From: Moorena sp. SIO3B2
Lineage (GTDB): Bacteria > Cyanobacteriota > Cyanobacteriia > Cyanobacteriales > Coleofasciculaceae
Direction of reading: 5' to 3'
Length of the DNA stretch: 18,789 bases
Assembly (NCBI RefSeq): GCF_010692525.1
Contig: NZ_JAAHHE010000120.1
Location: 1-18,789, forward strand
Made by a program: the position numbers and the translations under genes. The notes beneath the pieces were generated by a model. The model worked only from the letters and a program-made list of their open reading frames with translations, had not been told where the DNA came from and made no database searches. This document shows positions 20 through 18,789 of this stretch, in pieces. Position 1 is the first letter of the stretch. Each line of letters begins with the position of its first letter.

Positions 20-63
20 GGTGCGCTTTCCGTTGGCGAATTAAATTCGCCACGGGTCGCACC
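20..63. repeat. Copy of the ggtgcg...cgcacc hairpin repeat family; contains the palindrome ggcgaattaaattcgcc
   Basis: Shares gaattaaattcgccacgggtcgcacc with the copy at 14353-14397. Both ends are ggtgcg/cgcacc inverted termini. Confidence 0.5.
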
Positions 64-3860: not shown

Positions 3861-4022
3861 ATCTCTGTCCTTTTATAAAAATCCCCCAAAGCCGAAAACC
3901 CCGTGTCTAATGACCGGGGATGAAGGCTCACAGCGGCTTGACGCGCCTAGAAAAATATTTCAGGAAAATCCGGAATTTTAGTCTGGATGTTGTAAAATAA
4001 GGGAGTGAACAGTTTAGGTCCC

Positions 4023-4118
4023 AGACGAAACCTTAGAATAGGGTCGCCTTTATGGTTTGTCGGCTATGGAAAAAGGGTTAAAACTGTTGTTATAAGGCGA
4101 CCCTATTCTTACGGTAAC
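4023..4118. repeat. ~96-bp palindromic hairpin element (PATE/MITE-like), copy A. It has a perfect 14-bp stem agaatagggtcgcc/ggcgaccctattct around a ~47-nt loop
   Basis: The loop is near-identical to copy B at 4906-5003. It lies 13 nt upstream of the tnpB ATG. Confidence 0.8.
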
Positions 4119-4130
4119 TTTAAGAAGCTG

Positions 4131-5477
4131 ATGATCATTTTAGAGTTCAAGGCGAAAGGAAAAAAACATCAATACTCTGGGATCAACGAGGCTATCCGGA
4201 CAGTCCAGTTCATCCGTAATAGCTGCCTCAGGTATTGGATGGAAAATAAAGGGGTCAACAAATTTGACCTTAATAAGTACAGTGCAGTCCTTGCTAAAAA
4301 CTTTCCTTTTGCTAATGAATTAAACTCTACTGCTCGTCAGTCTAGTGCTGAAAGAGCATGGTCATCAATTGTTCGATTCTTTGATAACTGCAAGAAAAAA
4401 GTACCTGGAAAGAAAGGTTTTCCTAAGTTCCAGAAAAACTGCCGCTCAGTGGAGTATAAACAGTCTGGATGGAAGTTATCCCCTGACAAGAAGTCAATCA
4501 CCTTTAGTGATAAAAAGGGTATTGGGAAGCTTAAGCTTAAAGGTACATGGGACTTGTGGCGCTTGGATAAAAAGGAAATAAAGCGAGTCCGTATAGTTCG
4601 CCGGGCTGATGGTTATTATGTCCAGTTTTGTGTTTCAGTTGATATCAAAGAGGAACTAGAGCCAAGTGGGACAGCTATCGGCTTGGATGTTGGACTAAAA
4701 TATTTTTACACTGATTCCGCTGGAAAAACTGAACCAAATCCCTGCTTTTACAGAACGGTAGAAAAACGCCTTAAGTTCTACCAGCGTCGAGTTTCTCGCA
4801 AGAAGAAAGGCTCATCCAATCGAAATAAAGCAGTTAATAGACTAGGCAGACAGCACCTTAAGATAAGTAGGCAACGTGAAGAGAACGCCAAGAGACTGGG
4901 AACGAAGTTACCGTAAGAATAAAGAAGCCTTTATGGTTAGTCGGCTATGCATAAAAGGGTTAAATCTTTGTTATTAAGGCTTCTTTATTCTAAGGTTTCG
5001 TCTCCGGCGCGCTGCGTAATCTGTTCTAACGATCTGGTCGCCTAGGTCGACTTAAGAGCCAAGAACCTAGTAAAAAATCACTGCCTCGCTAAGTCTATTA
5101 ATGATGCAGGTTGGTATCAGTTTAGGAAATGGATGGAGCACTTTGGCACCAAGTTCGGAAAGGTAACAGTTGCAGTAAATCCTGCATATACCAGCCAAAA
5201 CTGTTCCAATTGTGGCGAAGAAGTTAAAAAGTCCCTATCAACTAGGACTCATACGTGCAAGTGTGGTTGTCAGTTAGATAGAGACCACAACGCCGCAATA
5301 AACATCCTTAAGAAAGCCTTGGGTACGGTGGGGCACACCGGAACCTGGATCTTAAAAGATCTAAACGCTTCAGGAGAATCGGCCTCTACTGTTCTTGGTT
5401 CCGGCCAGGTTCAGCAAGCTGGCTCGTTGAATGAAGAATCCCCGCGTATGCGCGACCGGGGAGTGTCAAAAAACTAG
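4131..5477 (+). pseudogene. tnpB: tnpB (IS200/IS605 OrfB, RuvC-like nuclease), disrupted
   Basis: N-part MIILEFKAKGKKHQYSGINEAIRTVQFIRNSCLRYWMEN...AIGLDVGLKYFYTDSAG (RuvC-I). C-part FGTKFGKVTVAVNPAYTSQNCSNCGE...CKCGCQLDRDHNAAINI (Zn finger plus RuvC-III). The reading frame is broken by the 96-nt hairpin insert (stop at 4914) and by an in-frame TAG at 5043. Confidence 0.85.
4906..5003. repeat. ~96-bp palindromic hairpin element, copy B, inserted inside tnpB. It has a perfect 14-bp stem agaataaagaagcc/ggcttctttattct
   Basis: Insert between codons KLP (4911) and ARCVI (5007). Its length is a multiple of 3 but it carries a stop. The loop is co-linear with copy A. Confidence 0.8.
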
Positions 5478-5490
5478 AAAGCTTGCTTTG

Positions 5491-7065
5491 ATGTCTCGAC
5501 ATAAGTACAAGAGATTAAAACACCAAATCATCCGGGTACCGAGCCGTTGGTACTTCTGCCTATCTTTGGCTATTACCATCCTGCTGGGATGGCTTGGTGT
5601 AGCAGTAGCACAAGATAGTAACACGAATAATTTCACTAACCTGTCTACTATCTGGTTGTTAGTTTCATCTTTTCTAGTCTTTTTTATGAATGCTGGCTTT
5701 GCCATGTTAGAAGCCGGGTTATGTAGACGGAGAAATGCGACTAATGTCTTGGCTAAAAATTTGATAGTTTTCTGTATATCAGCCTTAGCCTTTTGGCTAG
5801 TTGGCTTTGGCTTAATGTTTGGTGATGGCATCACTTACAGTTGTGTTCCAGGAGAAAATAATAGTTTAAGTTTAGTGGGTCAAAAGGGGTTGTTTTTTAA
5901 TCTTCCCTTTCCCCAATTTGGAAATCTTGGTTTTCCAGAATCAGGATTTAATTGTCTCAATCAAGATTGGTCTAATCGCTCCTTTGCGGCTCTATTTTTA
6001 TTTCAGTTAGTCTTTGCTGGAACTGCAGCCACTATTGTTTCAGGAGCTGTTGCTGAACGGGTAAAATTCTGGGCATTTCTCCTATTTAGTTTTTTCCTGG
6101 TTGGTTTTATCTATCCCGTAACCGGTCACTGGGTTTGGGGACACTATGGTTGGCTAGCCAAGGCGCTAAAATTTCATGATTTTGCGGGTTCAACTGTAGT
6201 CCATAGTGTTGGTGGTATGGCTGGCTTGGTAGGGGCTTGGCTACTAAAGCCACGACAAGGTCGTTTTGGCTACAATTTAAGAACAGATAGATATGAAGGT
6301 CTCGAAACTGAAAAGTTCTCTGCCGATAATCTGGGTTTAGCCACCTTAGGCTGCTTAATTCTTTGGCTGGGCTGGTTTGGTTTTAATGGTGGCTCAGCAA
6401 AGGATCTCGATTATGTAGCTAATACCATCACAACTACCATGATGGCAGCAGCAGCTGGTGGAATATCCAGCGTATTTTTTAGTCCAATTATCCTGGGAAA
6501 ACCCAGTCTAGCCTCAATTATCAATGGCATTTTAGGTGGGTTGGTGGGAATTACAGCCTCAGCTGCTTTTGTAGATATCAAAAGTGCATTTATAATTGGC
6601 TCTATCAGCGGTATTTTTGTCCTTTTAGGCGAATATTTTCTACAAGTTTGGAAAATTGACGACCCCGTAGGTTCGATTCCTGTTCACCTTTTCTGTGGAT
6701 TTTGGGGAACGATTGCCTTAGGAATCTTTAGTAGCAATAGTTCTCTGTTGTACTCGGAACTTGATGTATATGACGATCCATTATTACAAGTGTTGTGTCA
6801 GTTCTTAGGCTGGCTGATTATTATCATTGTAACAGCTCTATTGAGTTTATTAGGTTGGCTATTAGTTAGCCTAATTTTATATTATGCAAGCCATATCAAT
6901 GAGCGGATTAGCGGCAAACAACGCCATAGGAAACAATTACGTCAAACCCAATATTTTCAATTGGGAGAATTTATCTTAACTATTTTTGAAATTGCTCGTC
7001 GAGGAATTAGGGTATCTTTGGAAGAAGAAATCAGTGGTAGCGATGGAGTTTTTTATAATCCTTAG
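5491..7065 (+). CDS. amt: Ammonium transporter (Amt/MEP family)
   Basis: FFMNAGFAMLEAG, the signature GWFGFNGGS, VHLFCGFWGTIALGIF, about 11 TM segments and an N-terminal signal-like region. Start set at the ATG at 5491. The track ORF began at an upstream alternative codon, 5431. Confidence 0.9.
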   Translation: MSRHKYKRLKHQIIRVPSRWYFCLSLAITILLGWLGVAVAQDSNTNNFTNLSTIWLLVSSFLVFFMNAGFAMLEAGLCRRRNATNVLAKNLIVFCISALAFWLVGFGLMFGDGITYSCVPGENNSLSLVGQKGLFFNLPFPQFGNLGFPESGFNCLNQDWSNRSFAALFLFQLVFAGTAATIVSGAVAERVKFWAFLLFSFFLVGFIYPVTGHWVWGHYGWLAKALKFHDFAGSTVVHSVGGMAGLVGAWLLKPRQGRFGYNLRTDRYEGLETEKFSADNLGLATLGCLILWLGWFGFNGGSAKDLDYVANTITTTMMAAAAGGISSVFFSPIILGKPSLASIINGILGGLVGITASAAFVDIKSAFIIGSISGIFVLLGEYFLQVWKIDDPVGSIPVHLFCGFWGTIALGIFSSNSSLLYSELDVYDDPLLQVLCQFLGWLIIIIVTALLSLLGWLLVSLILYYASHINERISGKQRHRKQLRQTQYFQLGEFILTIFEIARRGIRVSLEEEISGSDGVFYNP

Positions 7066-7149
7066 AAGAATCTGGCTTATCAGTAAATAGCTAAGTCTTT
7101 AAAAGTAGGCAATAAAATAAATTTTTATTGACTAAAACCAGTCTATTAA

Positions 7150-7290
7150 GTTAGATTAATTAGTTAAATTAATTAGTTATTTAGTTAACTGTTTGCTAAA
7201 AATCCATGCATGAATTTCCTATTCCCTGTTCCCTGTTGCCACAACTACTGATTTAACAATTTAATTTAACAATTTAACAATTTAACAATT
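7150..7290. repeat. AT-rich tandem repeats: ttaattagtta-type units, ttccctg x2, and caatttaa x4-5
   Basis: Read directly from the sequence in the convergent intergenic region between amt and the 7293-8486 gene. Confidence 0.75.
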
Positions 7291-7292
7291 GA

Positions 7293-8486
7293 TTACCCCA
7301 AATATTTAGCAGCTGGACAATCTAATTTTATTAGATAGTTTCTCAACCAATTAGCATAATTCTCATTATTCCTATCCCATCGACGGAAAAAACGTGGAAG
7401 AGATTTTTGTTTAAACTGGTAGTAACGCTCTGATACTTGACAAAGATTTATAGTAGCTTGCTTGAATTCACCTTGACTAGCGAGCTCTTCTATAGCATAG
7501 GAAAACTGCAATTGATCTAACATTGACTGACATAGCTTGGGAAAAGCACTATTTTGACTCTTTATCTTTCTAAGTTGCTCTATTTGTTCTTTTCTGGTAG
7601 TAAATTGGCGTCTGCATATGTCCTCAGAAGCAAGGTTTTTTAGTTGATCGTCTGCTCTTCTAGCACTAGTACACTGAAATACACCAAAGGTAATGACTAG
7701 AAACAAGGCGATCAAGCCACCCCAAAAACTAATGGGTGATGGGATTCTGCTAGCTGATGAGGTAGCCAAGGTTGTGGCTTGGTCTGGCTCTAAAGGTACT
7801 ACAGTTGATTGGTTGGGCTCGTCAGTTGTTAGATCTGGGTGTTTGGGTTCATCAGTTGTCAGCTCTGAGTGTTTAGGCTGGTCAGTTGTGAGATCTTGGT
7901 CTTGAGTAACTGGGGTGATTGGTAGGTTAGGAAAAACCATGGCGATGGCTTGATCAGTAGCATCTGTCGTCAGCTCAGATGCCAACCAATAGTCTGTACT
8001 GGTCAACTGTGCTAACTCTTGAGCTACCCAGCTGTGATTAAAAACAACCTCATAAATACGGTTAGAAACTTTTAAATTTCCCCCCTGGTTAATCACCACA
8101 CCGGAGTTGAGCAACACTTTTTGTTCCCAACTGTCATTTGCCATCATGACTCCCTGCAAAATTTTCTGATATAGCCGCAGGAATTGTTCTTCGAGCAAGA
8201 AACTACGAATATCTTGCAGAAGTTCAGCGGCTTCCTGAGTTTCCCAATTTTCAACGAAGTGAGTTTTGACTAGTTCTTCGACTTTGAGAGCTTCCTCACC
8301 AACAGGGATGGGAGATTTAGAGTCAAGGATAACTTGACAAAGCTTCTGGGTCAAAAAAGGCTGAGAGCCAGTCCATGCCAGTACCTCGTCTAAGACAACA
8401 TCAGGGTTACTCAGATGCTCAGCCAATGCGAGTTTGAATGGTTCGAGGATTTTAGCCACCTCAGGTTTATCCTGCTTAGAGGTCAT
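7293..8486 (-). CDS. Hypothetical membrane protein: N-terminal ~190-aa soluble domain, T/D/E/P-rich tandem repeats, one TM helix, and a C-terminal ~130-aa domain
   Basis: 397-aa ORF. TM segment ISFWGGLIALFLVITFGVF. Repeats DLTTDQPKHSELTTDEPKHPDLTTDEP are encoded by three ~30-nt DNA repeats at 7815-7907. No family is confidently recognised. Confidence 0.6.
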   Translation of the reverse strand: MTSKQDKPEVAKILEPFKLALAEHLSNPDVVLDEVLAWTGSQPFLTQKLCQVILDSKSPIPVGEEALKVEELVKTHFVENWETQEAAELLQDIRSFLLEEQFLRLYQKILQGVMMANDSWEQKVLLNSGVVINQGGNLKVSNRIYEVVFNHSWVAQELAQLTSTDYWLASELTTDATDQAIAMVFPNLPITPVTQDQDLTTDQPKHSELTTDEPKHPDLTTDEPNQSTVVPLEPDQATTLATSSASRIPSPISFWGGLIALFLVITFGVFQCTSARRADDQLKNLASEDICRRQFTTRKEQIEQLRKIKSQNSAFPKLCQSMLDQLQFSYAIEELASQGEFKQATINLCQVSERYYQFKQKSLPRFFRRWDRNNENYANWLRNYLIKLDCPAAKYLG

Positions 8487-8628
8487 TTCATTCCTTGTGT
8501 ATTCCAGACTATTTTTCCTTCAAACATATTTTGTGATAGTCTTGAATTTTCGATCAAGATTAACAAGGAATTTCTATGATCTACAAGCCAGGTTATGGGT
8601 AAGATATGGGGTGTAAACTACATGTCCA

Positions 8629-8973
8629 CTACATGTCCATTACATCCAACCCCTCTGATGGCATAATCTTTCCCCCAAACGACTTAACTACATCTTCAAA
8701 CAAGGGCATATCATCCTGTGGGATTTCCACTACTACTACCATTTTGGCATATTCCTCTGCTCCTTCTTCCTTGTATTCTATTTGCTCGAAGGGCAGGTCT
8801 GTTGTCCAATCGTCTGAATTGCTATCAATCATAGGGACGTTGGGCAACAGTTCTTCAACTGGGATAGCGCGAGGTTTAAAAGGCAGATCGACGCAAAATC
8901 GAGGCAGTGCCTGATGAGAAAAATTAACGAAATCCACGGGATTGCTAAACACGACTGAAACTTGGACTTTCAT
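8629..8973 (-). CDS. Hypothetical protein (114 aa, acidic)
   Basis: ORF on the same strand, 142 nt upstream of the 7293-8486 gene. The overlapping plus-strand ORF is S/T-rich low complexity and less plausible. Confidence 0.45.
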   Translation of the reverse strand: MKVQVSVVFSNPVDFVNFSHQALPRFCVDLPFKPRAIPVEELLPNVPMIDSNSDDWTTDLPFEQIEYKEEGAEEYAKMVVVVEIPQDDMPLFEDVVKSFGGKIMPSEGLDVMDM

Positions 8974-9158
8974 AATCTATGCTATGGTATTAAATCTATT
9001 GAGACTAAGTTGAATTAATACATCATAGCAAAGATGAGCAGTGAGACAGCCTCTGACTTCCAGTCATGGCAAATCTGGGTCTAATACCCCCGTTAACCAA
9101 ACTGGTAATATGAACATTATATTGTATCGCAATGACTCAATTTAGGAATTGATGCCTG

Positions 9159-9554
9159 GTGAATAAAGACGTATCAAGGAGTTTGGTTTACGAGTTCCAG
9201 CCTCATCAGATTATTTGTTTAGAGCATGACAATACTCGTTTATACGCTGAAGTGATCGAATTTGTGTCATCGCGACAAATGTGTTGGGTGCGTTCTATGA
9301 TATTGGTCACCTTGCATAGTCAAGAGCCTGTGCCAGTGGAACTCCCTGAACAGCTTACTCTTTACGACCTACGCTCTGGACCGGATTTACTTTGGCCAGC
9401 GAGTTTATTACGACTAGCCTTAGACACTGAAGTAATTCCCCTCTTGGTTCGGTTAGATGACCCTGATGTCAATGTAGAAAGTGACCCTGATGCTCGCCAG
9501 CAACTAAGTTATTTTATCTGTGCAGTTTGGCAAGCTTATCCTGAAAAGTTTTAA
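9159..9554 (+). CDS. Hypothetical protein (131 aa)
   Basis: ORF divergent from the 8629-8973 gene. A weak hairpin acccct-N22-aggggtttt follows at about 9634-9672. No family is recognised. Confidence 0.45.
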   Translation: MNKDVSRSLVYEFQPHQIICLEHDNTRLYAEVIEFVSSRQMCWVRSMILVTLHSQEPVPVELPEQLTLYDLRSGPDLLWPASLLRLALDTEVIPLLVRLDDPDVNVESDPDARQQLSYFICAVWQAYPEKF

Positions 9555-9706
9555 GTTTTTTTAATGGTTAATCGGTAATAGGACTTTGCCAACTCAATGG
9601 TGATCTGATCACGACTCAAGCAGTAGCAAGTCAGACCCCTTAGGAGAGTAAACTAAAGTTGTAGGGGTTTTGCCACATGTAGCTGTCAGAGCTTGCCCCA
9701 ACCCTG

Positions 9707-9743
9707 AAAGTCATGGCTAAAAGTCATGGCTAAAAGTCATGGA
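9707..9743. repeat. 13-nt tandem repeat aaagtcatggcta, about 2.8 copies
   Basis: Read directly from the sequence. Confidence 0.8.
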
Positions 9744-9794
9744 GTAGTTACCAAGCCTCCGAGCTGGTCTAGCCTTAGTTTATAACCACTTTTT

Positions 9795-9989
9795 CTAGTG
9801 ACTCGGAACTAGCTGTACACGACCAGCATCCATCTCAGACATTAATAATTCCAGTGCTTCGTAATCCACATCAGAGATGTAACCAGTTTGAGTTAGTTCG
9901 TAGTTAATTGCATTTTCTATATCAGGAGTCAATTTCCTAATATAGAGGGCTTTTTCTACTAGTTGACGAATAACAAATGTAGTTTTCAC
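9795..9989 (-). CDS. Small hypothetical protein (64 aa)
   Basis: ORF only. No recognisable motif. It may be spurious. Confidence 0.3.
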   Translation of the reverse strand: MKTTFVIRQLVEKALYIRKLTPDIENAINYELTQTGYISDVDYEALELLMSEMDAGRVQLVPSH

Positions 9990-10214
9990 AATTACTTACC
10001 CACAATTCCATATAACTTTATTGTCTTCTGAAATTACTAGCCACTATAGTGATCTTTATCTTATTGGGATGTGATCTAAATCACTGATGAGGTGGATTGG
10101 TACTCTCTGACATATATATTACATATATATTATATGCCTTTTGGACTTAACTCAGAAAGCTTAACCTGAACGGAAGAAGCTATGCCGTTTCAAGGGTTAG
10201 AGGTATTGAAGTTT

Positions 10215-10336
10215 AGGTGCGACCCGTTCGCGTAGCGTTGGCAAAGCCAATAGGTGCGACCCAAGGGCGATTTATTCGCCCTTGGAGGCGCGCACCAATA
10301 GGTGCGAATTTAATTCTTAATGGGTCAAGCGCACCT
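10215..10336. repeat. Cluster of three (a)ggtgcga-type units. The third unit, 10301-10335, is the reverse complement of the copy at 14353-14397. The second unit contains the palindrome aagggcgatttattcgccctt
   Basis: The string ggtgcgaatttaattcttaatgggtcaagcgcacc reverse-complements to ggtgcgcttgacccattaagaattaaattcgcacc, which matches 14353-14397 apart from a 9-nt indel. Confidence 0.7.
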
Positions 10337-10681
10337 AAGGCAGTTATAAGGACATACTGCTTAGTACTACTTGCCTCTACACCCTAGTTAACGTTATACT
10401 TATCTAAGGCTAAACATTTGGCTCAAGCCTATAACAAAAAGTATTATATTTCTATGTCAGGGCAGCTCTATTTAGTTAACGTAACAAAAATTATTAAAAT
10501 TTAATCCCTACTTATAGGCATCAACTGAGCCATGCTCTTAGCAACTTAGACCATCGGAAATGAAAAATAAATTACTTAACTTGAAAAAAAGTAATATATG
10601 ATACATTTTGATGGTAAGTTTAATGAAGATTTCAAAAACCATTAGCAATCTGTAAAGATTCGGCAAAGTCTATCAGAAGTG

Positions 10682-10706
10682 GTATGGAATTAGCGAAATT
10701 CCATAC
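10682..10706. promoter_or_regulatory. Perfect 10-bp inverted repeat gtatggaatt-N5-aattccatac, a candidate operator upstream of the STAS gene
   Basis: The palindrome lies 60-85 nt upstream of ATG 10766. An SD-like gaggag sits 7 nt before the ATG. Confidence 0.4.
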
Positions 10707-10765
10707 TATCTTCAATATATTCTCTATAAAATTTTATTGGATTTGACCAAGTGAGGAGTCTACTC

Positions 10766-11098
10766 ATGACACAGGCGACCCTGAGTGCAAAATTAAGAAT
10801 TATTCAACCTTCCGGTCATATTAACGCTTCTAATGCAATTGAGTTTAAAAGTCAGTTGACAGAAGCTGTGGTGGCTGCTGAGGATTCGGCTTTGTTGGTT
10901 GATATGCATCAGTTAGAGTCTCTCGACAGTGCTGGCTTAATGGCCTTAATTCATGGTCTGAAGCTAGCAAGAAGTCTAGAGAGGCGCTTTGGTCTTTGCT
11001 CCGTAGCTCCTTCAATTCGAATTATGCTGGAGCTAACTAAATTAGATGGGGTGTTTGAGATTTTTGACAGCCATGAGGCTTTTGCTACAGCCCTCTAG
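10766..11098 (+). CDS. STAS-domain protein (SpoIIAA-like anti-sigma-factor antagonist)
   Basis: 110 aa from the ATG with a GAGGAG ribosome-binding site. Sequence ...LVDMHQLESLDSAGLMALIHGLKLARS... is typical of STAS. The track start at 10751 is a GTG upstream of the SD. Confidence 0.8.
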   Translation: MTQATLSAKLRIIQPSGHINASNAIEFKSQLTEAVVAAEDSALLVDMHQLESLDSAGLMALIHGLKLARSLERRFGLCSVAPSIRIMLELTKLDGVFEIFDSHEAFATAL

Positions 11099-11344
11099 GG
11101 GGTTGGAGTAGGTTGGGAAGCTAACTCAATGGCTCTGAGTGCAGCAAAATCATAGGAAATCTTGGGAAGATTAAGTGCTTACAGCGATGATGATGGGAGG
11201 AGATAGGGAAATACCAGTTAAGAAGTATGGTGGTTATTATCTCCCTCACTTCATCCACCTTCACCCCCTTATCTCTAGCCTGAGTACTGATAAAATCAAA
11301 GGTGGATCAGGGTTAACTGCATTGAAAGCAGTAATAAAGTTTCT

Positions 11345-14245
11345 ATGGCAATCACTGTAGAGGAAATATTAACACCAGACATCAACAGACCAGCCCGTTA
11401 CTTAGGTAACGAGTTGGGAGCAGTCCATAAACCTTGGGAAGAAGCTGAGGTACGCTGGGTATTGACTTATCCAGAAATCTATGAAGTGGGGGCTTCTAAC
11501 TTAGGCCATATCATCCTCTACAATATATTGAATTATCAACCTAGGCAATTATGCGATCGCGCCTATCTACCTGCCCCAGACTTGGCAGCTAAATTACGTT
11601 CCACTCAAACCCCTCTGTTTGCTGTCGAGAATCGGCGACCTCTGAAAGATTTTGATATTATTGGCTTTAGCCTTAGCTATGAATTAGGGGCAACCAACAT
11701 CTTGGAAATGTTGGATTTGGGAGGAATTCCCCTGACCTGGAAAGACCGTGCTCAGTTTGATATATCGGAAATACCCCTAATTTTTGCAGGTGGACAAACG
11801 GCGACATCGAATCCTGAACCCTATGCTGATTTCTTAGATTTTGTTGATCTTGGCGATGGGGAAGAATTGTTGCCAGAGATTGGCTTAGTAATCGAAGAAG
11901 GCAAAGCAGCTGGCTTAAGTCGAGAAGCGTTACTCCTGGATTTGGCTCAGATACCAGGGGTGTATGTCCCCCAATTCTATGATATGACTGAGGATGGCTC
12001 AGTTAAACCCAACCGCCCTGATGTGCCGAAGCGGATTTTGCGGCGTGTGGCTACACCGATGCCTGCCTATGCTATTGGACTAGTACCCTATATCCAAACG
12101 GTTCATGACCGACTCAAGATCGAAGTGCGACGGGGCTGTACTCGGGGTTGTCGCTTCTGCCAACCTGGGATGCTGACTCGACCAGCGCGGGATGTGGAAC
12201 CAGAAAAAGTGGTGGAAGCTATTGAACAAGGGATGCGTGCTACAGGGTATAACGAGTTTTCCCTTCTATCCCTGAGTTGTTCGGATTACCTGGCTCTACC
12301 AGCGGTGGGGATGGAAATCAAAAATCGTCTTAAGGATCAGAATATTTCCTTGTCCCTACCGAGTCAGCGGGTAGACCGCTTTGATGAGAATATTGCCAAT
12401 ATCCTAGGGGGCAATCGGCAGAGTGGCTTGACCTTTGCCCCAGAAGCAGGAACTCAGCGGATGCGGGATATTGTTAATAAGGGACTGACTAATGAAGAAC
12501 TGCTCAGGGGAGTAAAGACGGCATTTGAGCAAGGCTGGGAGAAAGTCAAGCTCTATTTTATGATTGGTTTGCCCGGTGAAACGGATATGGATGTGTTGGG
12601 GATTGCGGAAACGGTGCGTTGGTTGCAGCAGGAGTGCCGTGCTAAAGGCAGAAAAACCATTAAGTTTAACATAACTGTTTCTAATTTTACCCCAAAACCT
12701 CACACCCCATTCCAGTGGCATTCCGTATCGACTTCGGAGTTTGAACGCAAGCAGGAATTACTCAAACAAGTATTTGGTCAGATCAGGGGGGTGAAGGTTA
12801 ATTACACCGATGTTCGGATTTCGGCCATGGAAGATTTCGTGGGACGGGGTGACAGACGCTTAAGTGCGGTGGTGCGCCGTGCTTGGGAATTGGGGGCAGG
12901 GATGGACTCCTGGATGGAAAGCTTGGATCGGGCATTTGCTGCTTGGGAAAATGCGATCGCTTCATCAGGTCTGACCTGGAAATATCGCCAAGTAGAAAAT
13001 GGCGAATGGAACGTGATGGCGGGTGTAGAAGAGTTGCAAGTTGGAAGGTTGTTCGCGAAGCGTGGCCAAAAGGCCAAGGTTGAAAGTTCAGAGCAACCAG
13101 CTAACCTACAACCAGCTAACCTACAACCAACTAACCGACAACCAACTAACCGACAACCAACTAACCTTCAACCAGCTAACCTTCAACCAACTAACCTTCA
13201 ACCAACTAACCTTCAACCTTCTAACCTTCAACCTTCTAACCTTCAACCTTCTAACCTTCAACCTTCTAACCTTCAACCAGCTAACCTTCAACCAGCTAAC
13301 CTTCAACCGTCAACCCTTAACGCCCTTGATGCTCCCTTGCCTTGGGATCATATTGATACGGGAATTGATAAGAATTGGCTCAAGGAAGATTTACAACGGG
13401 CGTTAGATGCAGCAACGGTACCGGATTGTTCCTTTGATGGGTGTTCTCACTGTGGTGTGTGTGGGATTGATTTTGGTCATAATGTGGTGATTGACCCGCC
13501 ACAGATTCCGCAATTTGCTGGTCACTTTAAACCCAATACTAATAAGGATCAGCGGCTGCGGGTTTGGTTTGGAAAGTTGGGGGATATGACCTTGTTGGGT
13601 CATCTGGATTTGGCAAGTCTGTTTGAGAGAGCAGTAAGACGGGCGTCACTGCCAATTCGATATAGTGGGGGGTTTCGGGCTAATGCTCGGATTATGATTG
13701 CTAATGCGTTGCCCTTGGGAGCGTCTAGCAGTGGGGAGATTGTGGAGTTTGAGTTAACTGAGAAAATGCCAGTTGAGGAGTTTAGGGAAAGGCTGGTGTC
13801 TCAGTTGCCTGAAGAGATTCCGGTGTATGGGGTTGAAGCAGTGGATTTGAAGGAACCTGCGGGAACTCAGCTGTTGGAGAGAGCTGAGTATTTGATTCGA
13901 GTTGAGGTAATATCAGAAGCGTCTTGGGAAGAGTGGCAGGGTTGGATTGAAGCAATCAAAGGTAGTAAGGAAATTTGGTGGGAGCGGTTTACGAAGTCGG
14001 GGAAGAAGCAGTGGGTGAATTTATGCGATCGCTTATTTGACTTCGAGGTGATCGAACCCCAAAAATCCAAAGATGGTGAAGAGGAGGTTGCGGAGTCTGG
14101 GGTGGTTTTGCGGTATGTGGGGAGTTGTTTGAATGATGGCACGATGTTGCGACCAGAGCACATTATTTATATGTTGGAGCAGGTGGCGCAGCGGGAGTTT
14201 CGTTTGTTGCATGTTCATCGGCAACGGTTGATTCTGCGCAATTGA
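11345..14245 (+). CDS. Radical SAM protein (B12-binding-domain type, TIGR03960-like) fused to a C-terminal DUF2344-like domain, with a repeat-expanded linker
   Basis: 966 aa. It has the CxxxCxxC cluster RGCTRGCRFCQPGM. The N-terminus PARYLGNELGAVHKPW is typical of this rSAM family. The C-terminal ~270 aa after the repeats resemble DUF2344. Confidence 0.9.
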   Translation: MAITVEEILTPDINRPARYLGNELGAVHKPWEEAEVRWVLTYPEIYEVGASNLGHIILYNILNYQPRQLCDRAYLPAPDLAAKLRSTQTPLFAVENRRPLKDFDIIGFSLSYELGATNILEMLDLGGIPLTWKDRAQFDISEIPLIFAGGQTATSNPEPYADFLDFVDLGDGEELLPEIGLVIEEGKAAGLSREALLLDLAQIPGVYVPQFYDMTEDGSVKPNRPDVPKRILRRVATPMPAYAIGLVPYIQTVHDRLKIEVRRGCTRGCRFCQPGMLTRPARDVEPEKVVEAIEQGMRATGYNEFSLLSLSCSDYLALPAVGMEIKNRLKDQNISLSLPSQRVDRFDENIANILGGNRQSGLTFAPEAGTQRMRDIVNKGLTNEELLRGVKTAFEQGWEKVKLYFMIGLPGETDMDVLGIAETVRWLQQECRAKGRKTIKFNITVSNFTPKPHTPFQWHSVSTSEFERKQELLKQVFGQIRGVKVNYTDVRISAMEDFVGRGDRRLSAVVRRAWELGAGMDSWMESLDRAFAAWENAIASSGLTWKYRQVENGEWNVMAGVEELQVGRLFAKRGQKAKVESSEQPANLQPANLQPTNRQPTNRQPTNLQPANLQPTNLQPTNLQPSNLQPSNLQPSNLQPSNLQPANLQPANLQPSTLNALDAPLPWDHIDTGIDKNWLKEDLQRALDAATVPDCSFDGCSHCGVCGIDFGHNVVIDPPQIPQFAGHFKPNTNKDQRLRVWFGKLGDMTLLGHLDLASLFERAVRRASLPIRYSGGFRANARIMIANALPLGASSSGEIVEFELTEKMPVEEFRERLVSQLPEEIPVYGVEAVDLKEPAGTQLLERAEYLIRVEVISEASWEEWQGWIEAIKGSKEIWWERFTKSGKKQWVNLCDRLFDFEVIEPQKSKDGEEEVAESGVVLRYVGSCLNDGTMLRPEHIIYMLEQVAQREFRLLHVHRQRLILRN
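13094..13319 (+). repeat. 15 in-frame tandem copies of a 15-nt unit (caaccagctaacctt and variants), encoding (P[AST]N[LR]Q)x15 inside the rSAM gene
   Basis: Read directly. Unit variants are ..gct/act/tct.. and ..cta/cga/ctt... The repeat generates spurious ORFs on other frames (13041-13406 + and 13121-13306 -). Confidence 0.95.
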
Positions 14246-14352
14246 GAAATTTGGCGTTGCTGAATTAAGGTATGATTGGCTAAAAATGTGGCGTTGCTGA
14301 ATCAATCAATGAATATGAGTGGGGTGGACATCCTGCCTGCCCAAAAAGATCC

Positions 14353-14397
14353 GGTGCGCTTGACCCATTAAGAATTAAATTCGCCACGGGTCGCACC
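14353..14397. repeat. ggtgcg...cgcacc hairpin repeat copy, inverted relative to the 10301-10335 copy
   Basis: See 10215-10336. It shares its 3' half with the copy at 20-63. Confidence 0.7.
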
Positions 14398-14588
14398 GTC
14401 AGGAACGGGCAAGATGCCCATTCCACAAAACTATTCAAATCATTCCATTATTAAGCAACGCCTCAAAGAATGGTCTAAGGAAAAGAAAATCACTGCTTTG
14501 ATAAGGAAAGCCAATGGTACGGGAGTAATCAAAATTAGCCATTACCCATTACCAATAATTATCTTCTCACTGAGCTGGATTGATCTAG

Positions 14589-15458
14589 CTAACAATTATT
14601 ATTTTTAATCCTGCCATTAGGCATAATAGTGTTACAGAAAATAGCATCATTTAAGTCAGCCTTAGCTAATTTAGCCTTTTTAAGATTAGCATGGCTGAAA
14701 TTAGCCTCACTCAAATCAGCATCATGAAAGTCAACACCTTCTAAATTGGCATAACTTAGGTTGGCGGCTCTCAAGTCAGTATTATACAGTCTTGCACCAC
14801 TCAAATTAGCATGACTAAGGTTAGCGCCACACAGTTCTTCATAACCTAGGTTGACATTTTTCAAGTCTAAACCGCTTAAGTCAGCCTCGGCACAAATAAA
14901 GATTGCTCCGGCTTTTGATGGGTTAAATCCAGTCGGAAACTCAGTGTATGACGTATAGATAGCTTTGGTAAAATTTATACTACTCAGGTCAGCTTTTTTC
15001 CAGCCATCAACCCCTAGCATACGGGCATAACTGAGGTTAGCATTGCTCAGGTCAGAATCACCTACGTAAACCTCACATAAGGTAGCATAACTAAAATTGG
15101 CATCCCTGAGCTTACTAGTAGCTATATAGATTACAGATAAATCCGCATAACTCAGATCAGTACCACTAAAATCACAGTTTTCCAAGGTTGATTCAGAGGC
15201 TACTATATGACTCAAGTTAGCCTTAGTAAGGTTAGAATTTTCGATAGTGGTTTCGTATAGGTAAGCATTCCTCAAGTTAGCATGACTTAGATCTACATCA
15301 TCCCAAGTAGCTTCCTCTAAATCAGCATTACTCAAGTCCGCATTTTTTAGACAAACACCCTTGAAATTAGTACTTTTTAAGTTAGCCTTTTTCAAATTAA
15401 TACCAGAAAAATCTCTTTCACCGGCTTCGTAGCGTTTTAGGAAGTCATCACGATTCAT
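14589..15458 (-). CDS. Pentapeptide-repeat protein
   Basis: 289 aa. Continuous A(D/N)LSxANLxxA-type pentapeptide units run throughout. Confidence 0.9.
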   Translation of the reverse strand: MNRDDFLKRYEAGERDFSGINLKKANLKSTNFKGVCLKNADLSNADLEEATWDDVDLSHANLRNAYLYETTIENSNLTKANLSHIVASESTLENCDFSGTDLSYADLSVIYIATSKLRDANFSYATLCEVYVGDSDLSNANLSYARMLGVDGWKKADLSSINFTKAIYTSYTEFPTGFNPSKAGAIFICAEADLSGLDLKNVNLGYEELCGANLSHANLSGARLYNTDLRAANLSYANLEGVDFHDADLSEANFSHANLKKAKLAKADLNDAIFCNTIMPNGRIKNNNC

Positions 15459-16109
15459 AGTATGCCCCTTATTTGTTTAATATTAGATAGTAATCATCCT
15501 GATTATATCCTAAAAAAAAATATTAGTATTTTTAGAGGTTGGGTTAATGATTAATGGTTAATAGTTGTTAGTACTTAATGCTATCAAGCCTAATATAAGG
15601 TGGCCTCATACCTCATCGTTAATGTTCCGATCAGCAATCACATCTCCTATCCCAGGGGTTTGATGAAATTGCTCCCAACTCCATAAACTCAACGTAGTCA
15701 TAACGAGTTTGGGTTATTTTGGCAGAACAGAAAAAGAAAGGTTACTTTAGTTTTATAGCGAGTTCCTTTGCTGTCAGGTTACAAAATAGTTGATTGTTGA
15801 TTAGGCTTTAGGGATAAACCATGAACTATAGCAATCCTACATGAATCCTGATATTTCCTGATCCGAAGCTCCCTTGGTAAAACAATTTTGCTCACAACTG
15901 ACTTGGGATTTATATAGGCACAATACTGTATCTAAATACCTGAACATAAATGCTGTTAACTGTGTTGAAACCCTTAACGTTGTTCAACCCCTTTATGTTC
16001 TCGGTTCGCCGTTCCCTATTCCCTTATCTGATCAGTCAACTTTCATTGTGTATGACTACTTACGACCGATGAAGGCAACTTAGTAATCTAGTTCGATTAG
16101 ACCGAGACT

Positions 16110-16583
16110 ATGACTACAACTGAGCGTAAAACAGAGAAGAAAATGGAAGTGCCTAGAACAACTAGTGAAGTGATTCGCATCAAGCCCCAACAGTTTATTC
16201 ATGTGCTAGACAACAATACTGGTGTTACGCGACTGGAGGTTGGTCCTCAAACCATTACCCTTCGGGATCACGAGCGGCTGATCTTAAAACCTGAACCGAT
16301 GATTATTGTGCCGCCTCGATATTATTGTGTGGTGGCTAATCCATTACTCCGGGATGAAGACGGTCAACCCATTGCTGATCAGCATGGTCAAATTCGACTG
16401 CGCTACGGTGATCTGGAAATTCGTTTCGCGCAAGATCCGTTTCCCCTTTATCCAAACGAGAAACTGGTAGGGGATTTGACACTCCCCGTTCTTCTAGGAC
16501 GGGGAGTGTCAAAGGCAGAAAATATAGCCATTGAGTCTACAGGTCAGGCAACAGCAGAAGCAAGAGCTAAGGAATACTCTTAA
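16110..16583 (+). pseudogene. Major vault protein (MVP) homolog, N-terminal remnant (repeat domains 1-2) joined to a short cap-helix-like piece and then truncated
   Basis: IRIKPQQFIHVLDNNTGVTRLEVGP, VPPRYYCVVANP and [25 protein letters not shown] match the recalled MVP N-terminus ([25 protein letters not shown] / VPPRHYCTVANP / [25 protein letters not shown]). A full MVP is about 850 aa, so the middle is missing. Confidence 0.75.
16476..16512. repeat. Perfect palindrome ttgacactccccg-N11-cggggagtgtcaa with a 13-bp stem. It carries the same motif as the tnpB right-end hairpin at 5440-5470
   Basis: Read directly. It lies at the point where MVP N-terminal homology ends. Confidence 0.85.
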
Positions 16584-18271
16584 ACCGTCATCAATCGGGA
16601 TAAAACCGAATAAAACGGCCAAGGTGCATTTTATTGATGTCTGAGTGAGGAGCGGTCAAGTAGCAATTGGAGTCAAGCCTCCCGCTCATCTATCTAGACG
16701 TTCCTCACATCCCGGTGAGGAGTTCCTTAAAAGCTTGAGTTTTGGCATGCTTGCGGTCAAGCCATCCTAGCTTAACCGCGTCAGCTAAAGTCAAATCCAT
16801 ACCTTCTAAGAAACGCGCAGTACGACGCAACAATACTGCCTGCACTTCAACCCTAGTCATAAACCGGGAGATTCCTTGATCTGTACCACGAGCAAGGATA
16901 TTCTTCGCAGCATTGTGATCAGCCTGCAACACGACCCCATTAAATCTGATAAAACTGTCCCCAATCCTTGCTCCCAATAAGGTGCCAGAAAAGGAGTCAA
17001 TTTGCGACGTGTAGCTTGGCTGGACTTCTGTCACAACCGAACCAGTCCAATTAGCCCATTTCTGCAAGGAGTACCGCATTTCTCCTTTCATCCAGCTATT
17101 CAACTTGCGAGACATAGCCTTTGACTGGCGTTTATTTTTGATTGGTTGCGTTAAATCCTCAGCAAAAATTCTTAGAGATTCTCCTTTGAAGAGGGATTTA
17201 GAAGCAGCCCCTATAATCGCCCTCAACTCTGATTGATCTCTTCTGTAACGACTGTTTTCTGTTTTTCGACTCAGATTATTTTTCAGTATCCGAGCTGATT
17301 TAGCTGGATCTATTTTTTCTAGCTTCCTATGTATTGCCCAGAGTTTTCCTCTGTTCCGATTTTTGGCGCATATTCGATGGCCAAAAGGCCACGCTACGCG
17401 AACGGATTTTATGGTTGCTATTTTGCCCAGGTTCTTCCCGTGTGCCTGACCATCTGAATCATAAAAAGCCTCGGTGTATCCCTTGTCTACTCCTATCGCT
17501 CGACGTTCAGGAGGAATCTCAGCTGTCCCGTGATTAACCAAAAAATGAATCTCAAATCTTGCCAGTAGAGAGTTGTATATTAGTCTAATCTGTCCTTTAA
17601 TATTTCGATTAGACCTAACTATTAGTTTGTTTCTTTTTCCTCTTCTGATTCCAGCTAATTCCAATTGATAAGTATAACGAGACAATCGTTTACACGAGTA
17701 TCCTCCTTGTTGGTATACAACTTGATTCTTGACCCAATAATGTCCTCTCTGAAACTCTTTCCTTACAAGTCTGTGCAATAGTGGATTATCCAGAAAAGCT
17801 GAAGTTTTGAGTTGCTTAGAGATATCCTTTCTGATCTTCTGGTTTTCCTTTCCAGGAAACCTCTTATAGATCTTTTTTATGACTGCCTCAATGGAAGCCG
17901 CTTGTTGAGCTGTGATAGTTTTAGCTACATCACTGACAGTCCATTCCATTAACTTGGAAGGCAAGCCCAGGGACTCAGGCTTCCTGAAGTCCCTGACTTC
18001 TGGGTAGGCTTTTTTCCAGTCAAGTCCCCAATGACTTATACTACCCAGCTTGTTGTAAGACTCAGACCTGACGACGCCTAGTTTTTTCATCGTAGACAAC
18101 AGCTCAAGCTCAACCGACTTAGCTATCCCTACAACTGGGACGACCTGAGTCGATATCTTCTTTACTGCGCCTACTTTCTTTTGCATCATCAACGGTGTGT
18201 ACAGCTTTTGCTATATACTGCCATTATAGTCTAGCGCTATAAAATTGTCAATGTCCAGTTCGCACTATTAA
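16584..18271 (-). mobile_element. Insertion element carrying a TnpB-like gene, minus orientation. Ends are approximate
   Basis: MVP-like coding sequence stops at 16583 and resumes at 18272. The 3' flank contains the hairpin cctcacatcccggtgagg. Confidence 0.5.
16705..18192 (-). CDS. TnpB-like (IS200/IS605 OrfB-type) RuvC-fold nuclease/transposase-associated protein, 495 aa, without the usual CxxC..CxxC zinc finger
   Basis: RuvC-I AIGVDKGYTEAFYDSDGQ, RuvC-II IFAEDLTQPIKNKRQSKAMSRKLNSW, RuvC-III VVLQADHNAAKNILARG. There are no Cys residues between RuvC-II and RuvC-III. Confidence 0.75.
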   Translation of the reverse strand: MMMQKKVGAVKKISTQVVPVVGIAKSVELELLSTMKKLGVVRSESYNKLGSISHWGLDWKKAYPEVRDFRKPESLGLPSKLMEWTVSDVAKTITAQQAASIEAVIKKIYKRFPGKENQKIRKDISKQLKTSAFLDNPLLHRLVRKEFQRGHYWVKNQVVYQQGGYSCKRLSRYTYQLELAGIRRGKRNKLIVRSNRNIKGQIRLIYNSLLARFEIHFLVNHGTAEIPPERRAIGVDKGYTEAFYDSDGQAHGKNLGKIATIKSVRVAWPFGHRICAKNRNRGKLWAIHRKLEKIDPAKSARILKNNLSRKTENSRYRRDQSELRAIIGAASKSLFKGESLRIFAEDLTQPIKNKRQSKAMSRKLNSWMKGEMRYSLQKWANWTGSVVTEVQPSYTSQIDSFSGTLLGARIGDSFIRFNGVVLQADHNAAKNILARGTDQGISRFMTRVEVQAVLLRRTARFLEGMDLTLADAVKLGWLDRKHAKTQAFKELLTGM

Positions 18272-18516
18272 ATACAGTTTTGTCCTAATTTTTCGGGACT
18301 TGACTGCGAGGCTCACATTAAGAGTGAAGAATACCGACAGAAAGTAGAAGCAATTGGTCCTCAAACCATTCAAGCGATCGCACAAGCAGGTCCGGAAATG
18401 CAGGCAAGACTTCTAGAAGCACTTGGTATCCAGAGTGTTTTGATTACCGATGGCAAAAATCCCATCAATCTATTTGGTGCAGCTAATGGTCTGATTAGTC
18501 CGCCAACTTCTAACTA
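18272..18516 (+). pseudogene. MVP homolog, C-terminal remnant (cap-helix end and cap-ring)
   Basis: [55 protein letters not shown] matches the recalled MVP [55 protein letters not shown]. Confidence 0.7.
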
Positions 18517-18528
18517 AGTACATGTGTA

Positions 18529-18566
18529 TCTGCTGCGCGCAGCAGACACAGCGCGCAGCAGACACA
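18529..18566. repeat. 18-bp perfect palindrome tctgctgcgcgcagcaga overlapping a tandem 16-mer gcgcgcagcagacaca x2
   Basis: Read directly. It sits just downstream of the MVP stop. Confidence 0.85.
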
Positions 18567-18586
18567 GATAGACTGATAACCCAACG

Positions 18587-18612
18587 CTATCTTACCGGTC
18601 TATCTTACCGGT
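18587..18612. repeat. 13-nt tandem repeat ctatcttaccggt x2
   Basis: Read directly. It overlaps the stop codon of the minus-strand partial CDS. Confidence 0.8.
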
Positions 18613-18789
18613 CTATATGTGTCGAAGGTTGAGAGTTGAGGTGTTGCTCAACTCTGTTAATGACCCCTAGTACGAGAAACAGAGCAAATACTACAGCAAC
18701 ACCGATAGCAGTCCACTTGAAAAAAACTAACTTTGGCCGACCTTTAGCTGGATAACCACAACTGAGGCAAATTTCATCGTTGGTGCTGG
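18605..18789 (-). CDS. Partial CDS, 3' end only (the gene continues beyond the window). Its C-terminus has CxxC and a TM helix
   Basis: Open frame from the window edge to TAA at 18605-18607, translating ...STNDEICLSCGYPAKGRPKLVFFKWTAIGVAVVFALFLVLGVINRVEQHLNSQPSTHIDR*. It is absent from the ORF track because no start lies in the window. Confidence 0.4.
   Translation of the reverse strand, partial: STNDEICLSCGYPAKGRPKLVFFKWTAIGVAVVFALFLVLGVINRVEQHLNSQPSTHIDR

What the first reader, a model, noticed from the sequence alone, without database searches (positions are those of the whole stretch)
16476..16512. Perfect 13-bp-stem palindrome at the MVP deletion junction shares the tnpB right-end motif
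ttgacactccccg-ttcttctagga-cggggagtgtcaa is perfectly self-complementary. Its arm cggggagtgtcaa is identical to the terminal hairpin of the tnpB element (5457-5470), and a third ccccg-N11-cgggg occurs at 3899-3919. Two readings fit. It may be a solo right-end relic, like an omegaRNA-scaffold end, left after a deletion took out the IS body and about 570 codons of MVP. Or it may be the terminal hairpin of the neighbouring minus-strand TnpB-like element. The left arm may even derive from MVP codons (LTLPV), which would mean a palindrome created at a rearrangement junction.
Basis: seen in the sequence. Interest (0 to 1): 0.5.

Follow-up and report, generated by a model that had tools for sequence, protein, structure and literature searches.

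The report
Palindromic scar of two transposon ends
The 37-bp perfect palindrome is a leftover of mobile DNA: two right ends of tnpB-type insertion sequences, facing opposite ways and fused at one shared hairpin, mark the spot where 1.8 kb of a cyanobacterial major-vault-protein gene was deleted; it is a neat but non-functional scar in a dead gene.

Summary
The palindrome at 16476-16512 is real: 13-bp perfect arms, an 11-nt spacer, fold z = -7.2. Its loop and right arm (16484-16512) match 29/29 the right end (RE) of an IS200/IS605-family tnpB element from Moorena sp. SIO3I8. This is a very large cyanobacterial IS/MITE family with IS608-like ends: ...GAAT-CCCCG-loop-CGGGG-AGTG-TCAA|flank.

Two intact Moorena MVP alleles show that the 37 bp replace exactly 1,834 bp of MVP (about 611 codons). 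The left arm is not MVP-derived; the native sequence there is GTCACG. The hairpin does not belong to the neighbouring minus-strand TnpB-like element, which is a separate insertion at 16573-18309 and lies beyond 60 bp of MVP.

Both palindrome edges sit on legitimate target sites of this family, on opposite strands. The right edge follows a top-strand TTAC and the left edge follows a bottom-strand TGAC. The joint chance of this is about 1.7e-4.

Best model (inferred, confidence about 0.65): two head-to-head insertions, then a deletion between the TCCCCG repeats of the two RE hairpins. This resembles Tn10 "nearly precise excision" and leaves RE'-hairpin-RE. Seven similar scars occur in other cyanobacterial sequences, and their arms always stop at the RE terminus. 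The result is ordinary biology in an apparently undescribed scar form.

The parts
16476..16512 (.). 37-bp palindromic scar (RE' - shared hairpin - RE). It replaces exactly 1,834 bp of native MVP.
   Evidence: Sequence. blastn against intact Moorena alleles stops at 16475 and resumes at 16513. Fold z = -7.2.
16484..16512 (+). RE hairpin (CCCCG-TTCTTCTAGGA-CGGGG) plus terminus AGTG-TCAA of a plus-strand IS200/IS605-family element. The loop is in canonical plus orientation.
   Evidence: 29/29 identical to the RE of a Moorena sp. SIO3I8 element, L022. The flank begins right after a TTAC in the intact alleles.
16476..16488 (-). Second RE terminus (TTGA-CACT-CCCCG on the top strand), as left by a minus-strand insertion 3' of a bottom-strand TGAC.
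   Evidence: The native sequence continues gat|GTCA. A clean minus-strand insertion of the same family in M. producens MVP gives the same flank|TTGACACTCCCCG junction. TGAC is the target of CAAG-guide members.
16110..16475 (+). MVP codons 1-122 (N-terminal fragment).
   Evidence: Pfam Vault_2, E = 1e-26. 96% nucleotide identity to L130 up to the junction.
16513..16572 (+). MVP fragment B (about codons 734-753, AENIAIESTGQATAEARAK), read in frame through the palindrome.
   Evidence: tblastn and blastn to L121, L128 and L130.
16573..18309 (-). Separate insertion carrying a divergent 495-aa TnpB-like gene (16705-18192). It replaces 172 bp of MVP and is not part of the palindrome.
   Evidence: Junctions. 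PF07282 and NF040570 hits are weak. It holds no copy of the 13-mer.
18310..18517 (+). MVP C-terminal fragment (about codons 811-879).
3877..5469 (+). Reference copy of the same IS family (tnpB-1, a pseudogene). Probable TTAT target 3873-3876, LE guide AAAA 3895-3898, LE hairpin 3899-3919, RE guide GAAT 5436-5439, RE hairpin 5440-5461, terminus AGTGTCAA 5462-5469.

Best explanation
The palindrome is a transposon scar made of two right-end (RE) termini of one IS200/IS605-family tnpB element family, in opposite orientation and sharing a single RE hairpin.

Most likely history:
1. One element inserted in plus orientation 3' of the top-strand TTAC at MVP gene position 2197-2200.
2. A second element inserted in minus orientation 3' of the bottom-strand TGAC, which reads GTCA on the top strand at gene position 367-370. 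The two copies then sat head to head (LE facing LE) around 1.8 kb of MVP.
3. A deletion between the short direct repeats TCCCCG(T), which each RE hairpin provides at the outer ends of this large inverted repeat, removed both element bodies and the MVP segment between them. Replication slippage or copy-choice across the base of the snap-back structure is the probable route.

What remains is flank|TTGACAC-TCCCCG-loop-CGGGGA-GTGTCAA|flank. The scar has no LE and no GAAT guide, and it keeps only 29 nt of the guide-RNA scaffold region. It should therefore be inert for both TnpA and TnpB. It happens to keep the reading frame (net change -1797 nt), which produces a 157-aa chimeric ORF.

Shown: the identity of the arms, the exact deletion end points, the target sites at both edges, and the recurrence of such scars. 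Inferred: the existence of the second copy and the slippage step.
For: 1. Identity of the right arm. The loop plus right arm match 29/29 the RE of the Moorena sp. SIO3I8 element L022.
2. Nature of the 13-mer. It ends a huge cyanobacterial family. 108 of 122 genome hits have GAAT immediately 5' of the hairpin, and sequence becomes variable right after TCAA. 52 of 122 have TnpB C-terminal homology ending at the motif. Others are short LE-RE MITEs.
3. Exact end points. The intact alleles L130 (879-aa MVP, Moorena sp. SIO3I6) and L128 (M. producens) align up to 16475 and from 16513. The 37 bp replace 1,834 bp, with no shared base at either junction.
4. Target sites at both edges. The right edge follows TTAC, and the left edge is followed by GTCA, which is a bottom-strand TGAC. 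In the intact gene only 1.4% (top strand) and 1.2% (bottom strand) of positions have a family target in the right place, so the joint chance is about 1.7e-4.
5. Target rules. TTAC, TTAT and TGAC are the family's targets, as shown by guide/target covariation: AAAG with TTAC, AAAA with TTAT, and CAAG with TGAC in 3 of 3 cases, including L022. This matches the IS608 pairing rule, in which guide base 1 pairs with target position -3.
6. A clean precedent. A minus-strand insertion of a 523-bp family member in M. producens MVP produces the same flank|TTGACACTCCCCG junction without target duplication.
7. Recurrence. Seven further palindromised REs (L006, L087, L123-L127) carry loops that match the variety of loops seen in ordinary REs. 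Their complementarity stops at TTGA/TCAA, with 0-1 extra bp, as chance predicts.
Against: No precursor allele was found, that is, MVP carrying one or both elements. The two junction targets differ (TTAC and TGAC). This requires two elements with different LE guides, or one off-target insertion. No head-to-head pair was seen among the 120 fetched loci. The deletion step is inferred by analogy and was not observed. Empty sites for the other seven scars could not be obtained, so the rule that both edges lie on targets was tested only once. Two metagenome scars (L124, L126) have identical 37-mers at different loci. The same IS subfamily could produce this, but it is also what a mobile unit would show.
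Confidence: 0.65

Rival explanations
1. Single insertion followed by fold-back. Only the plus-strand IS at TTAC existed. A break or deletion then removed its body and the upstream MVP. Hairpin-primed (snap-back) synthesis, or a quasi-palindrome template switch at the RE hairpin, copied the RE tail AGTGTCAA to create the left arm.
For: It needs one insertion instead of two. RE hairpins are strong single-strand structures. Two of the eight scars (L006, L127) have fully symmetric hairpins without the usual bulge.
Against: Fold-back copying has no reason to stop at the RE terminus. Yet all 8 scars stop there, with 0-1 extra bp, as expected by chance. TnpA nicks only the top strand, so it provides no template 5' end at that point (mechanism). 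The left junction lies exactly beside a valid bottom-strand TGAC target, which has a 1.2% chance under this model. Most scars keep the asymmetric bulge of the parental hairpin.
Confidence: 0.12
2. The 37-mer is a small REP- or REPIN-like mobile palindrome derived from the RE. It inserted here, or was copied here, with the deletion as a side effect.
For: The form recurs in at least 8 loci from several cyanobacterial genera. L124 and L126 carry the same 37-mer at different loci.
Against: There is no LE. The tetranucleotide 5' of the hairpin is CACT instead of the GAAT guide needed to present TCAA. The flanks share no target motif. Loops differ between scars and track local canonical REs. That argues against amplification.
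Confidence: 0.07
3. The palindrome is the terminal hairpin (guide-RNA or RE end) of the neighbouring minus-strand 495-aa TnpB-like element.
For: It lies about 190 bp beyond the 3' end of that gene, and read on the minus strand it also ends in ...CGGGGAGTGTCAA.
Against: 60 bp of native MVP (16513-16572, 98% identical to intact alleles) separate them. That element's own junctions are at 16572/16573 and 18309/18310. The loop is in plus-strand RE orientation and identical to L022. The protein is a divergent TnpB, unlike the family that carries this RE.
Confidence: 0.01
4. The left arm is native MVP sequence (codons L-T-L-P) that happens to be complementary to the RE tail, or was selected for being so. 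The palindrome would then have been created by the junction itself.
For: The D-L-T reading resembles the orthologous D/E-V/I-T.
Against: Both intact Moorena alleles read gat|GTC ACG CAA CTG at this point, and homology ends at 16475. The same TTGACACT arm occurs in seven unrelated loci.
Confidence: 0.01

Closest known systems
IS608 and the IS200/IS605 family (single-strand 'peel-and-paste' elements; tnpB-only IS1341-type members and their MITE/PATE derivatives)
   Same: Both have subterminal hairpins at LE and RE. The RE guide GAAT lies 5' of the hairpin foot and the cleavage site is TCAA, both identical to IS608. The target tetranucleotide lies about 17-22 nt 5' of the LE hairpin and covaries with the LE guide as in IS608. 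Insertion is 3' of the target without duplication. A TnpB gene ends at the RE.
   Different: The object itself is not an element but a 37-bp remnant with two RE termini and no LE. TCAA lies 4 nt from the hairpin rather than 10 nt as in IS608. No tnpA is present in the window.
Tn10 'nearly precise excision' remnant (Ross, Swan and Kleckner 1979; Foster et al. 1981). Mechanism recalled from memory; the references are listed.
   Same: In both, a deletion between short direct repeats near the outer ends of two inverted IS copies removes almost everything and leaves a small palindromic remnant. The process is independent of transposase and stimulated by the inverted repeats.
   Different: The transposon family is different (DDE IS10 versus HUH/Y1 IS200/IS605). 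Here the direct repeats exist only because each end carries a self-complementary hairpin. The repeat is 6-7 nt rather than 24 bp. The two copies are independent insertions around a host gene segment, not a composite transposon. The mechanism was not tested here.
REP/REPIN sequences mobilised by RAYT (TnpA-like) transposases
   Same: Both are short GC-rich extragenic-type palindromes evolutionarily linked to IS200/IS605-like ends.
   Different: There is no conserved 5' tetranucleotide tag, no multi-copy amplification, and no associated RAYT. Each scar has its own loop.
TnpB guide RNA (omegaRNA/reRNA) 3' scaffold end
   Same: The RE hairpin plus AGTGTCAA is the last part of the region that in TnpB elements encodes the scaffold, with the guide starting in the flank. 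This rests on established knowledge of TnpB elements. tnpB ends at the motif in 52 loci.
   Different: Only 29 nt of scaffold remain and no tnpB lies upstream. No Rfam family reaches its gathering score anywhere in the window. A functional guide RNA is not expected.

Membership tests
IS200/IS605 family end (IS608-like RE) | Subterminal hairpin followed by a conserved cleavage tetranucleotide at the element terminus | tested here: met
   The structure CCCCG-loop-CGGGG-AGTG-TCAA, with sequence becoming variable right after TCAA, is seen in 122 genome hits. IS608's cleavage site CR is TCAA.
IS200/IS605 family end (IS608-like RE) | Guide tetranucleotide (GAAT) immediately 5' of the hairpin foot | tested here: not met
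   Canonical copies have GAAT in 108 of 122 cases. The palindrome has CACT instead. It is therefore a derivative of an RE, not an intact functional RE.
IS200/IS605 family element | Insertion 3' of a target tetranucleotide specified by the LE guide, without target duplication | tested here: met
   Guide/target covariation is AAAA with TTAT, AAAG with TTAC and CAAG with TGAC. A filled versus empty site comparison in MVP shows no duplication. The palindrome's right edge is 3' of TTAC and its left edge 3' of a bottom-strand TGAC.
IS200/IS605 family element | Presence of an LE and of tnpA and/or tnpB between the ends | tested here: not met
   Nothing lies between the two arms except the 11-nt loop. 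The object is a remnant, not an element.
MITE/PATE of IS200/IS605 | Both an LE and an RE on the same strand flanking a short non-coding body | tested here: not met
   True MITEs of this family have an LE hairpin with guide plus an RE, spanning 277-523 bp. The palindrome has an RE-type terminus on each strand and no LE.
REP/REPIN | High copy number of near-identical palindromes within a genome and an associated RAYT gene | tested here: inconclusive
   There is only one copy in the window. The metagenome scan gave 5 hits with varied loops. A census of the whole source genome was not possible. No RAYT was looked for outside the window.
Tn10-type nearly precise excision scar (mechanistic class) | Remnant consists of the outer ends of two inverted IS copies joined at a short direct repeat | tested here: met
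   Both arms are RE termini that end exactly at legitimate insertion junctions. The TCCCCG(T) repeat is available in both hairpins.
Tn10-type nearly precise excision scar (mechanistic class) | A demonstrated precursor with two inverted copies, and transposase- and RecA-independent formation | not testable with these tools
   No precursor allele was present in the sequences reachable here. Confirmation needs more Moorena genomes or an experiment.
TnpB guide RNA (omegaRNA) | Full scaffold (about 100-150 nt overlapping the tnpB 3' end) upstream of the terminus | tested here: not met
   Only 29 nt are shared with canonical copies. Upstream sequence is MVP. No Rfam family reaches its gathering score in the window.

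The most novel reading that the evidence does not exclude
Palindromised right ends may be a regular, so far undescribed by-product of IS200/IS605 biology. One route would be local hopping of an excised copy onto the opposite strand, followed by rapid collapse. If so, such RE'-hairpin-RE units would be genomic fossils that date and map IS-mediated deletions. They could also be the raw material from which REP/REPIN-like palindromes arise.
Probability: 0.1. Interest if true: 0.55.

Novelty: new variant of a known kind. Interest (0 to 1): 0.33.

Why it matters
- **Annotation.** The 157-aa "hypothetical protein" annotated in several Moorena genomes is a chimeric pseudogene. It consists of MVP codons 1-122, 37 bp of transposon scar and 20 MVP codons.
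- **Gene loss.** The locus shows to the nucleotide how tnpB-type insertion sequences can delete host DNA and leave a recognisable palindromic mark.
- **Target prediction.** Natural covariation between the left-end guide and the target (AAAA/TTAT, AAAG/TTAC, CAAG/TGAC) allows the target motif of cyanobacterial TnpB elements to be predicted from sequence alone.
- **Limits.** The palindrome does not reveal a new system and has no indicated function.

Tried and rejected
- **Rfam scan of the window at gathering thresholds.** It gave no hits.
- **First test of the two-insertion idea.** I used the ENA ortholog L121, which has GTAA (a bottom-strand TTAC) after the left junction. The true Moorena alleles have GTCA instead. 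That looked like a failed prediction until the CAAG-guide/TGAC-target subfamily turned up.
- **Search for precursor alleles.** I looked through protein clusters of the MVP N-terminus. Only the same 157-aa allele, partial fragments and one intact 879-aa allele were found.
- **Search for head-to-head pairs.** None was present among the 120 fetched loci.
- **Flanks of the other scars.** I checked whether they are two parts of one gene. Only L124, a porin gene region, was suggestive, and it is too complex to interpret.
- **Literature searches.** No prior description of RE-RE palindromic scars was found, but the library is incomplete.
- **Rejected models.** I rejected TnpA-mediated RE-RE joining, hairpin formation by the RE 3'-OH, and TnpB-cleavage-based models. 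None of them produces a bottom-strand RE terminus.

Full report
**Observation**

The sequence at 16476-16512 is TTGACACTCCCCG-TTCTTCTAGGA-CGGGGAGTGTCAA, with perfect 13-nt arms and an 11-nt spacer. The 13-mer occurs three times in the window: 5457-5469 (+), 16500-16512 (+) and 16476-16488 (-). Shuffled sequence gives 0.24 matches even when two mismatches are allowed, and none of 200 shuffles reaches three. As single-stranded DNA the region folds at -18.8 kcal/mol, with z = -7.2. The hairpin at 3899-3919 is also real.

**What the 13-mer is**

Nearly all hits are cyanobacterial, from Nostoc, Microcoleus, Anabaena, Moorena, Scytonema and others.

- In 108 of 122 hits the hairpin is preceded by GAAT.
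- Sequence conservation ends immediately after TCAA.
- In 52 hits a TnpB C-terminus homologous to the window's tnpB ends at the motif, and 35 of these also have the N-terminal part.
- Many other hits are short non-coding elements carrying both an LE and this RE, 277-523 bp long.

The motif is therefore the right-end (RE) terminus of a very abundant IS200/IS605-family tnpB element and its MITE derivatives.

The layout is that of IS608. Its RE guide is GAAT and its cleavage site is TCAA. Its LE target is TTAC, and a four-base guide 5' of the hairpin foot presents the cleavage site by base pairing.

The left ends show the same logic. The target lies about 17-22 nt 5' of the LE hairpin and covaries with the guide:

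| LE guide | Target | Loci |
|---|---|---|
| AAAA | TTAT | 13 |
| AAAG | TTAC | 9 |
| CAAG | TGAC | 3 of 3 (L022, L046, L112) |

The CAAG/TGAC pair is what the IS608 structure predicts, because guide base 1 pairs with target position -3.

The window's own plus-strand copy spans 3877-5469. Its LE guide is AAAA, and a probable TTAT target lies at 3873-3876.

**The MVP locus**

The 157-aa ORF (16110-16583) starts with a major vault protein N-terminus (Pfam Vault_2, E = 1e-26). The same ORF is annotated in Moorena sp. SIO1G6 and M. producens JHB. The SIO1G6 locus is 99.8% identical to window 6125-18789 and carries the identical palindrome.

Two syntenic alleles with the gene present were recovered. 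L130 (Moorena sp. SIO3I6) has an intact 879-aa MVP. L128 (M. producens) has MVP broken only by two small insertions.

Alignment to these alleles gives the following:

- Homology runs up to window 16475 and resumes at 16513.
- The 37-bp palindrome, and nothing else, replaces 1,834 bp of MVP (L130 3367-5200, about 611 codons).
- No base is shared at either junction.
- The net change of -1797 nt keeps the reading frame.
- A second, independent lesion follows. Window 16573-18309 carries the minus-strand 495-aa TnpB-like gene and replaces 172 bp of MVP. The MVP C-terminus then continues from 18310.

This settles three points. First, the left arm is not MVP sequence, because the native text after ...ggggat is GTCACGCAACTG. 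Second, the hairpin is not the end of the neighbouring minus-strand element. 60 bp of native MVP separate them, and that element has its own junctions and no copy of the motif. Third, loop plus right arm (16484-16512) match 29/29 the RE of a Moorena sp. SIO3I8 element (L022), in plus orientation.

**Both edges are insertion junctions**

In the intact alleles the base before the right flank ends a TTAC (ctagaaTTAC|aggcagaaaat). This is exactly where a plus-strand member of the family would place its RE.

The bases after the left flank are GTCA, which is TGAC on the bottom strand (gcgTGAC|atcccc). This is exactly where a minus-strand member with a CAAG guide would place its RE. L022, which shares the palindrome's RE, is itself a CAAG-guide element sitting 3' of a TGAC.

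In the intact gene only 1.4% of positions are preceded by a family target on the top strand, and 1.2% are followed by one on the bottom strand. The joint chance is about 1.7e-4.

A direct precedent exists in the same gene. M. producens carries a clean 523-bp minus-strand MITE of this family, inserted at a bottom-strand TTAC without target duplication. It gives gatactt|TTGACACTCCCCG...CGGGGATTC..., the same kind of left junction.

**Recurrence**

The palindromised form, with TTGACACT in place of ...GAAT before the hairpin, occurs in two other genome loci: L006 (Scytonema) and L087, which has one mismatch. It also occurs in five metagenome contigs, L123-L127.

The loops differ between examples and match the variety of loops seen in ordinary REs. 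In all eight cases complementarity stops at TTGA/TCAA, with three cases extending by 1 bp and five by 0 bp, as random flanks predict.

The form is rare. There were five exact hits in 241 million metagenome records. The flanks share no target motif.

**Mechanism**

The best account has three steps: a plus-strand insertion at TTAC(2200), a minus-strand insertion at TGAC(367), and then loss of everything between the two RE hairpins.

Each RE hairpin is self-complementary. Two inverted copies therefore carry short direct repeats, TCCCCG(T), at the very base of the large inverted repeat that they form. Slippage or copy-choice between these repeats gives exactly the observed flank|TTGACAC-TCCCCG-loop-CGGGGA-GTGTCAA|flank, with the loop of the plus copy retained.

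This is formally the same as Tn10 "nearly precise excision", a deletion between short direct repeats near the outer ends of inverted IS10 copies that leaves a small palindromic remnant. That mechanism is recalled from memory; the references are listed.

The junctions, targets, identities and recurrence are shown. The second copy and the slippage step are inferred.

The scar should be inert. It has no LE, CACT replaces the GAAT guide, and only 29 nt of the guide-RNA scaffold region remain.

**Rivals**

- **Single insertion with fold-back or template-switch copying of the RE tail.** This is simpler. It does not explain why all eight palindromes end at the RE terminus, nor why the left junction lies beside a valid target.
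- **A REP-like mobile palindrome.** This is disfavoured by the absence of a guide and an LE, by the varied loops, by rarity and by the lack of a common flank. The identical 37-mers at two loci (L124, L126) keep it alive at low probability.
- **The neighbouring-element reading and the MVP-codon reading.** Both are contradicted directly by the intact alleles.

**Comparison with known things, and novelty**

The parental element is an ordinary member of the IS200/IS605 family with IS608-like ends. The object itself fails the membership tests for an element, a MITE/PATE, a guide RNA or an intact RE. It is a remnant.

I found no description of RE'-hairpin-RE scars in the searchable literature, and that library is incomplete. 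I rate it a new variant of a known kind. It is of modest interest, mainly for annotation, for reconstructing IS-mediated deletions, and for reading target motifs from LE guides.

**Limits**

- No precursor allele was found.
- The test that both edges lie on targets could be made only for this locus.
- The two targets differ, which requires two guide variants or one off-target event.

Noticed in passing
window 4023-4120 and 4905-5003; stop codon at 5043-5045: The plus-strand tnpB (3877-5469) is a pseudogene. A roughly 98-bp MITE-like unit with inverted repeats splits the gene at 4905-5003, and a second copy in inverted orientation lies between the LE and the gene start. An in-frame TAG interrupts the RuvC region.
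   Followed up: partly
window 16573-18309 (gene 16705-18192, minus strand): This element carries a divergent 495-aa TnpB-like protein (NF040570 at 66.7 bits against a cut-off of 100; weak PF07282). It replaces 172 bp of MVP. Its ends do not resemble the CGGGGAGTGTCAA family, and its family and its guide RNA were not characterised.
   Followed up: partly
L130 3001-5640; L128 6907-10342; L121 599-3241: Some cyanobacteria carry full-length major vault protein genes. The one in Moorena sp. SIO3I6 is 879 aa and is annotated 'colicin uptake protein'. In Moorena the gene is repeatedly hit by mobile DNA. M. producens has a 523-bp MITE of the tnpB family and an unrelated 271-bp insert. The L121 gene has an in-frame stop.
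   Followed up: partly
L009, L022, L038, L046, L077, L082, L083, L112, L115, L128 (LE regions): There is natural covariation between the LE guide tetranucleotide and the flanking target: AAAG/TTAC, AAAA/TTAT and CAAG/TGAC. This allows the TnpB target-adjacent motif to be predicted from the LE alone. CAAG/TGAC members occur in at least three genomes.
   Followed up: yes
window 13064-13348: A 15-nt tandem repeat of about 19 units lies inside the radical-SAM ORF (11345-14245). It encodes an (N-L-Q-P-x)n tract.
   Followed up: no
window 38-63, 10304-10335, 14353-14397: A 26-32-nt dispersed repeat (GGTGCGCTTGACCCATTAAGAATTAAATTCGCC and related) occurs in direct and inverted copies in intergenic regions.
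   Followed up: no
L124 804-840 and L126 112-148: Two metagenome contigs carry the identical 37-bp palindromised RE at unrelated loci. In L124 it lies between a porin C-terminal fragment and about 560 bp of unrelated DNA that interrupts the porin gene.
   Followed up: partly
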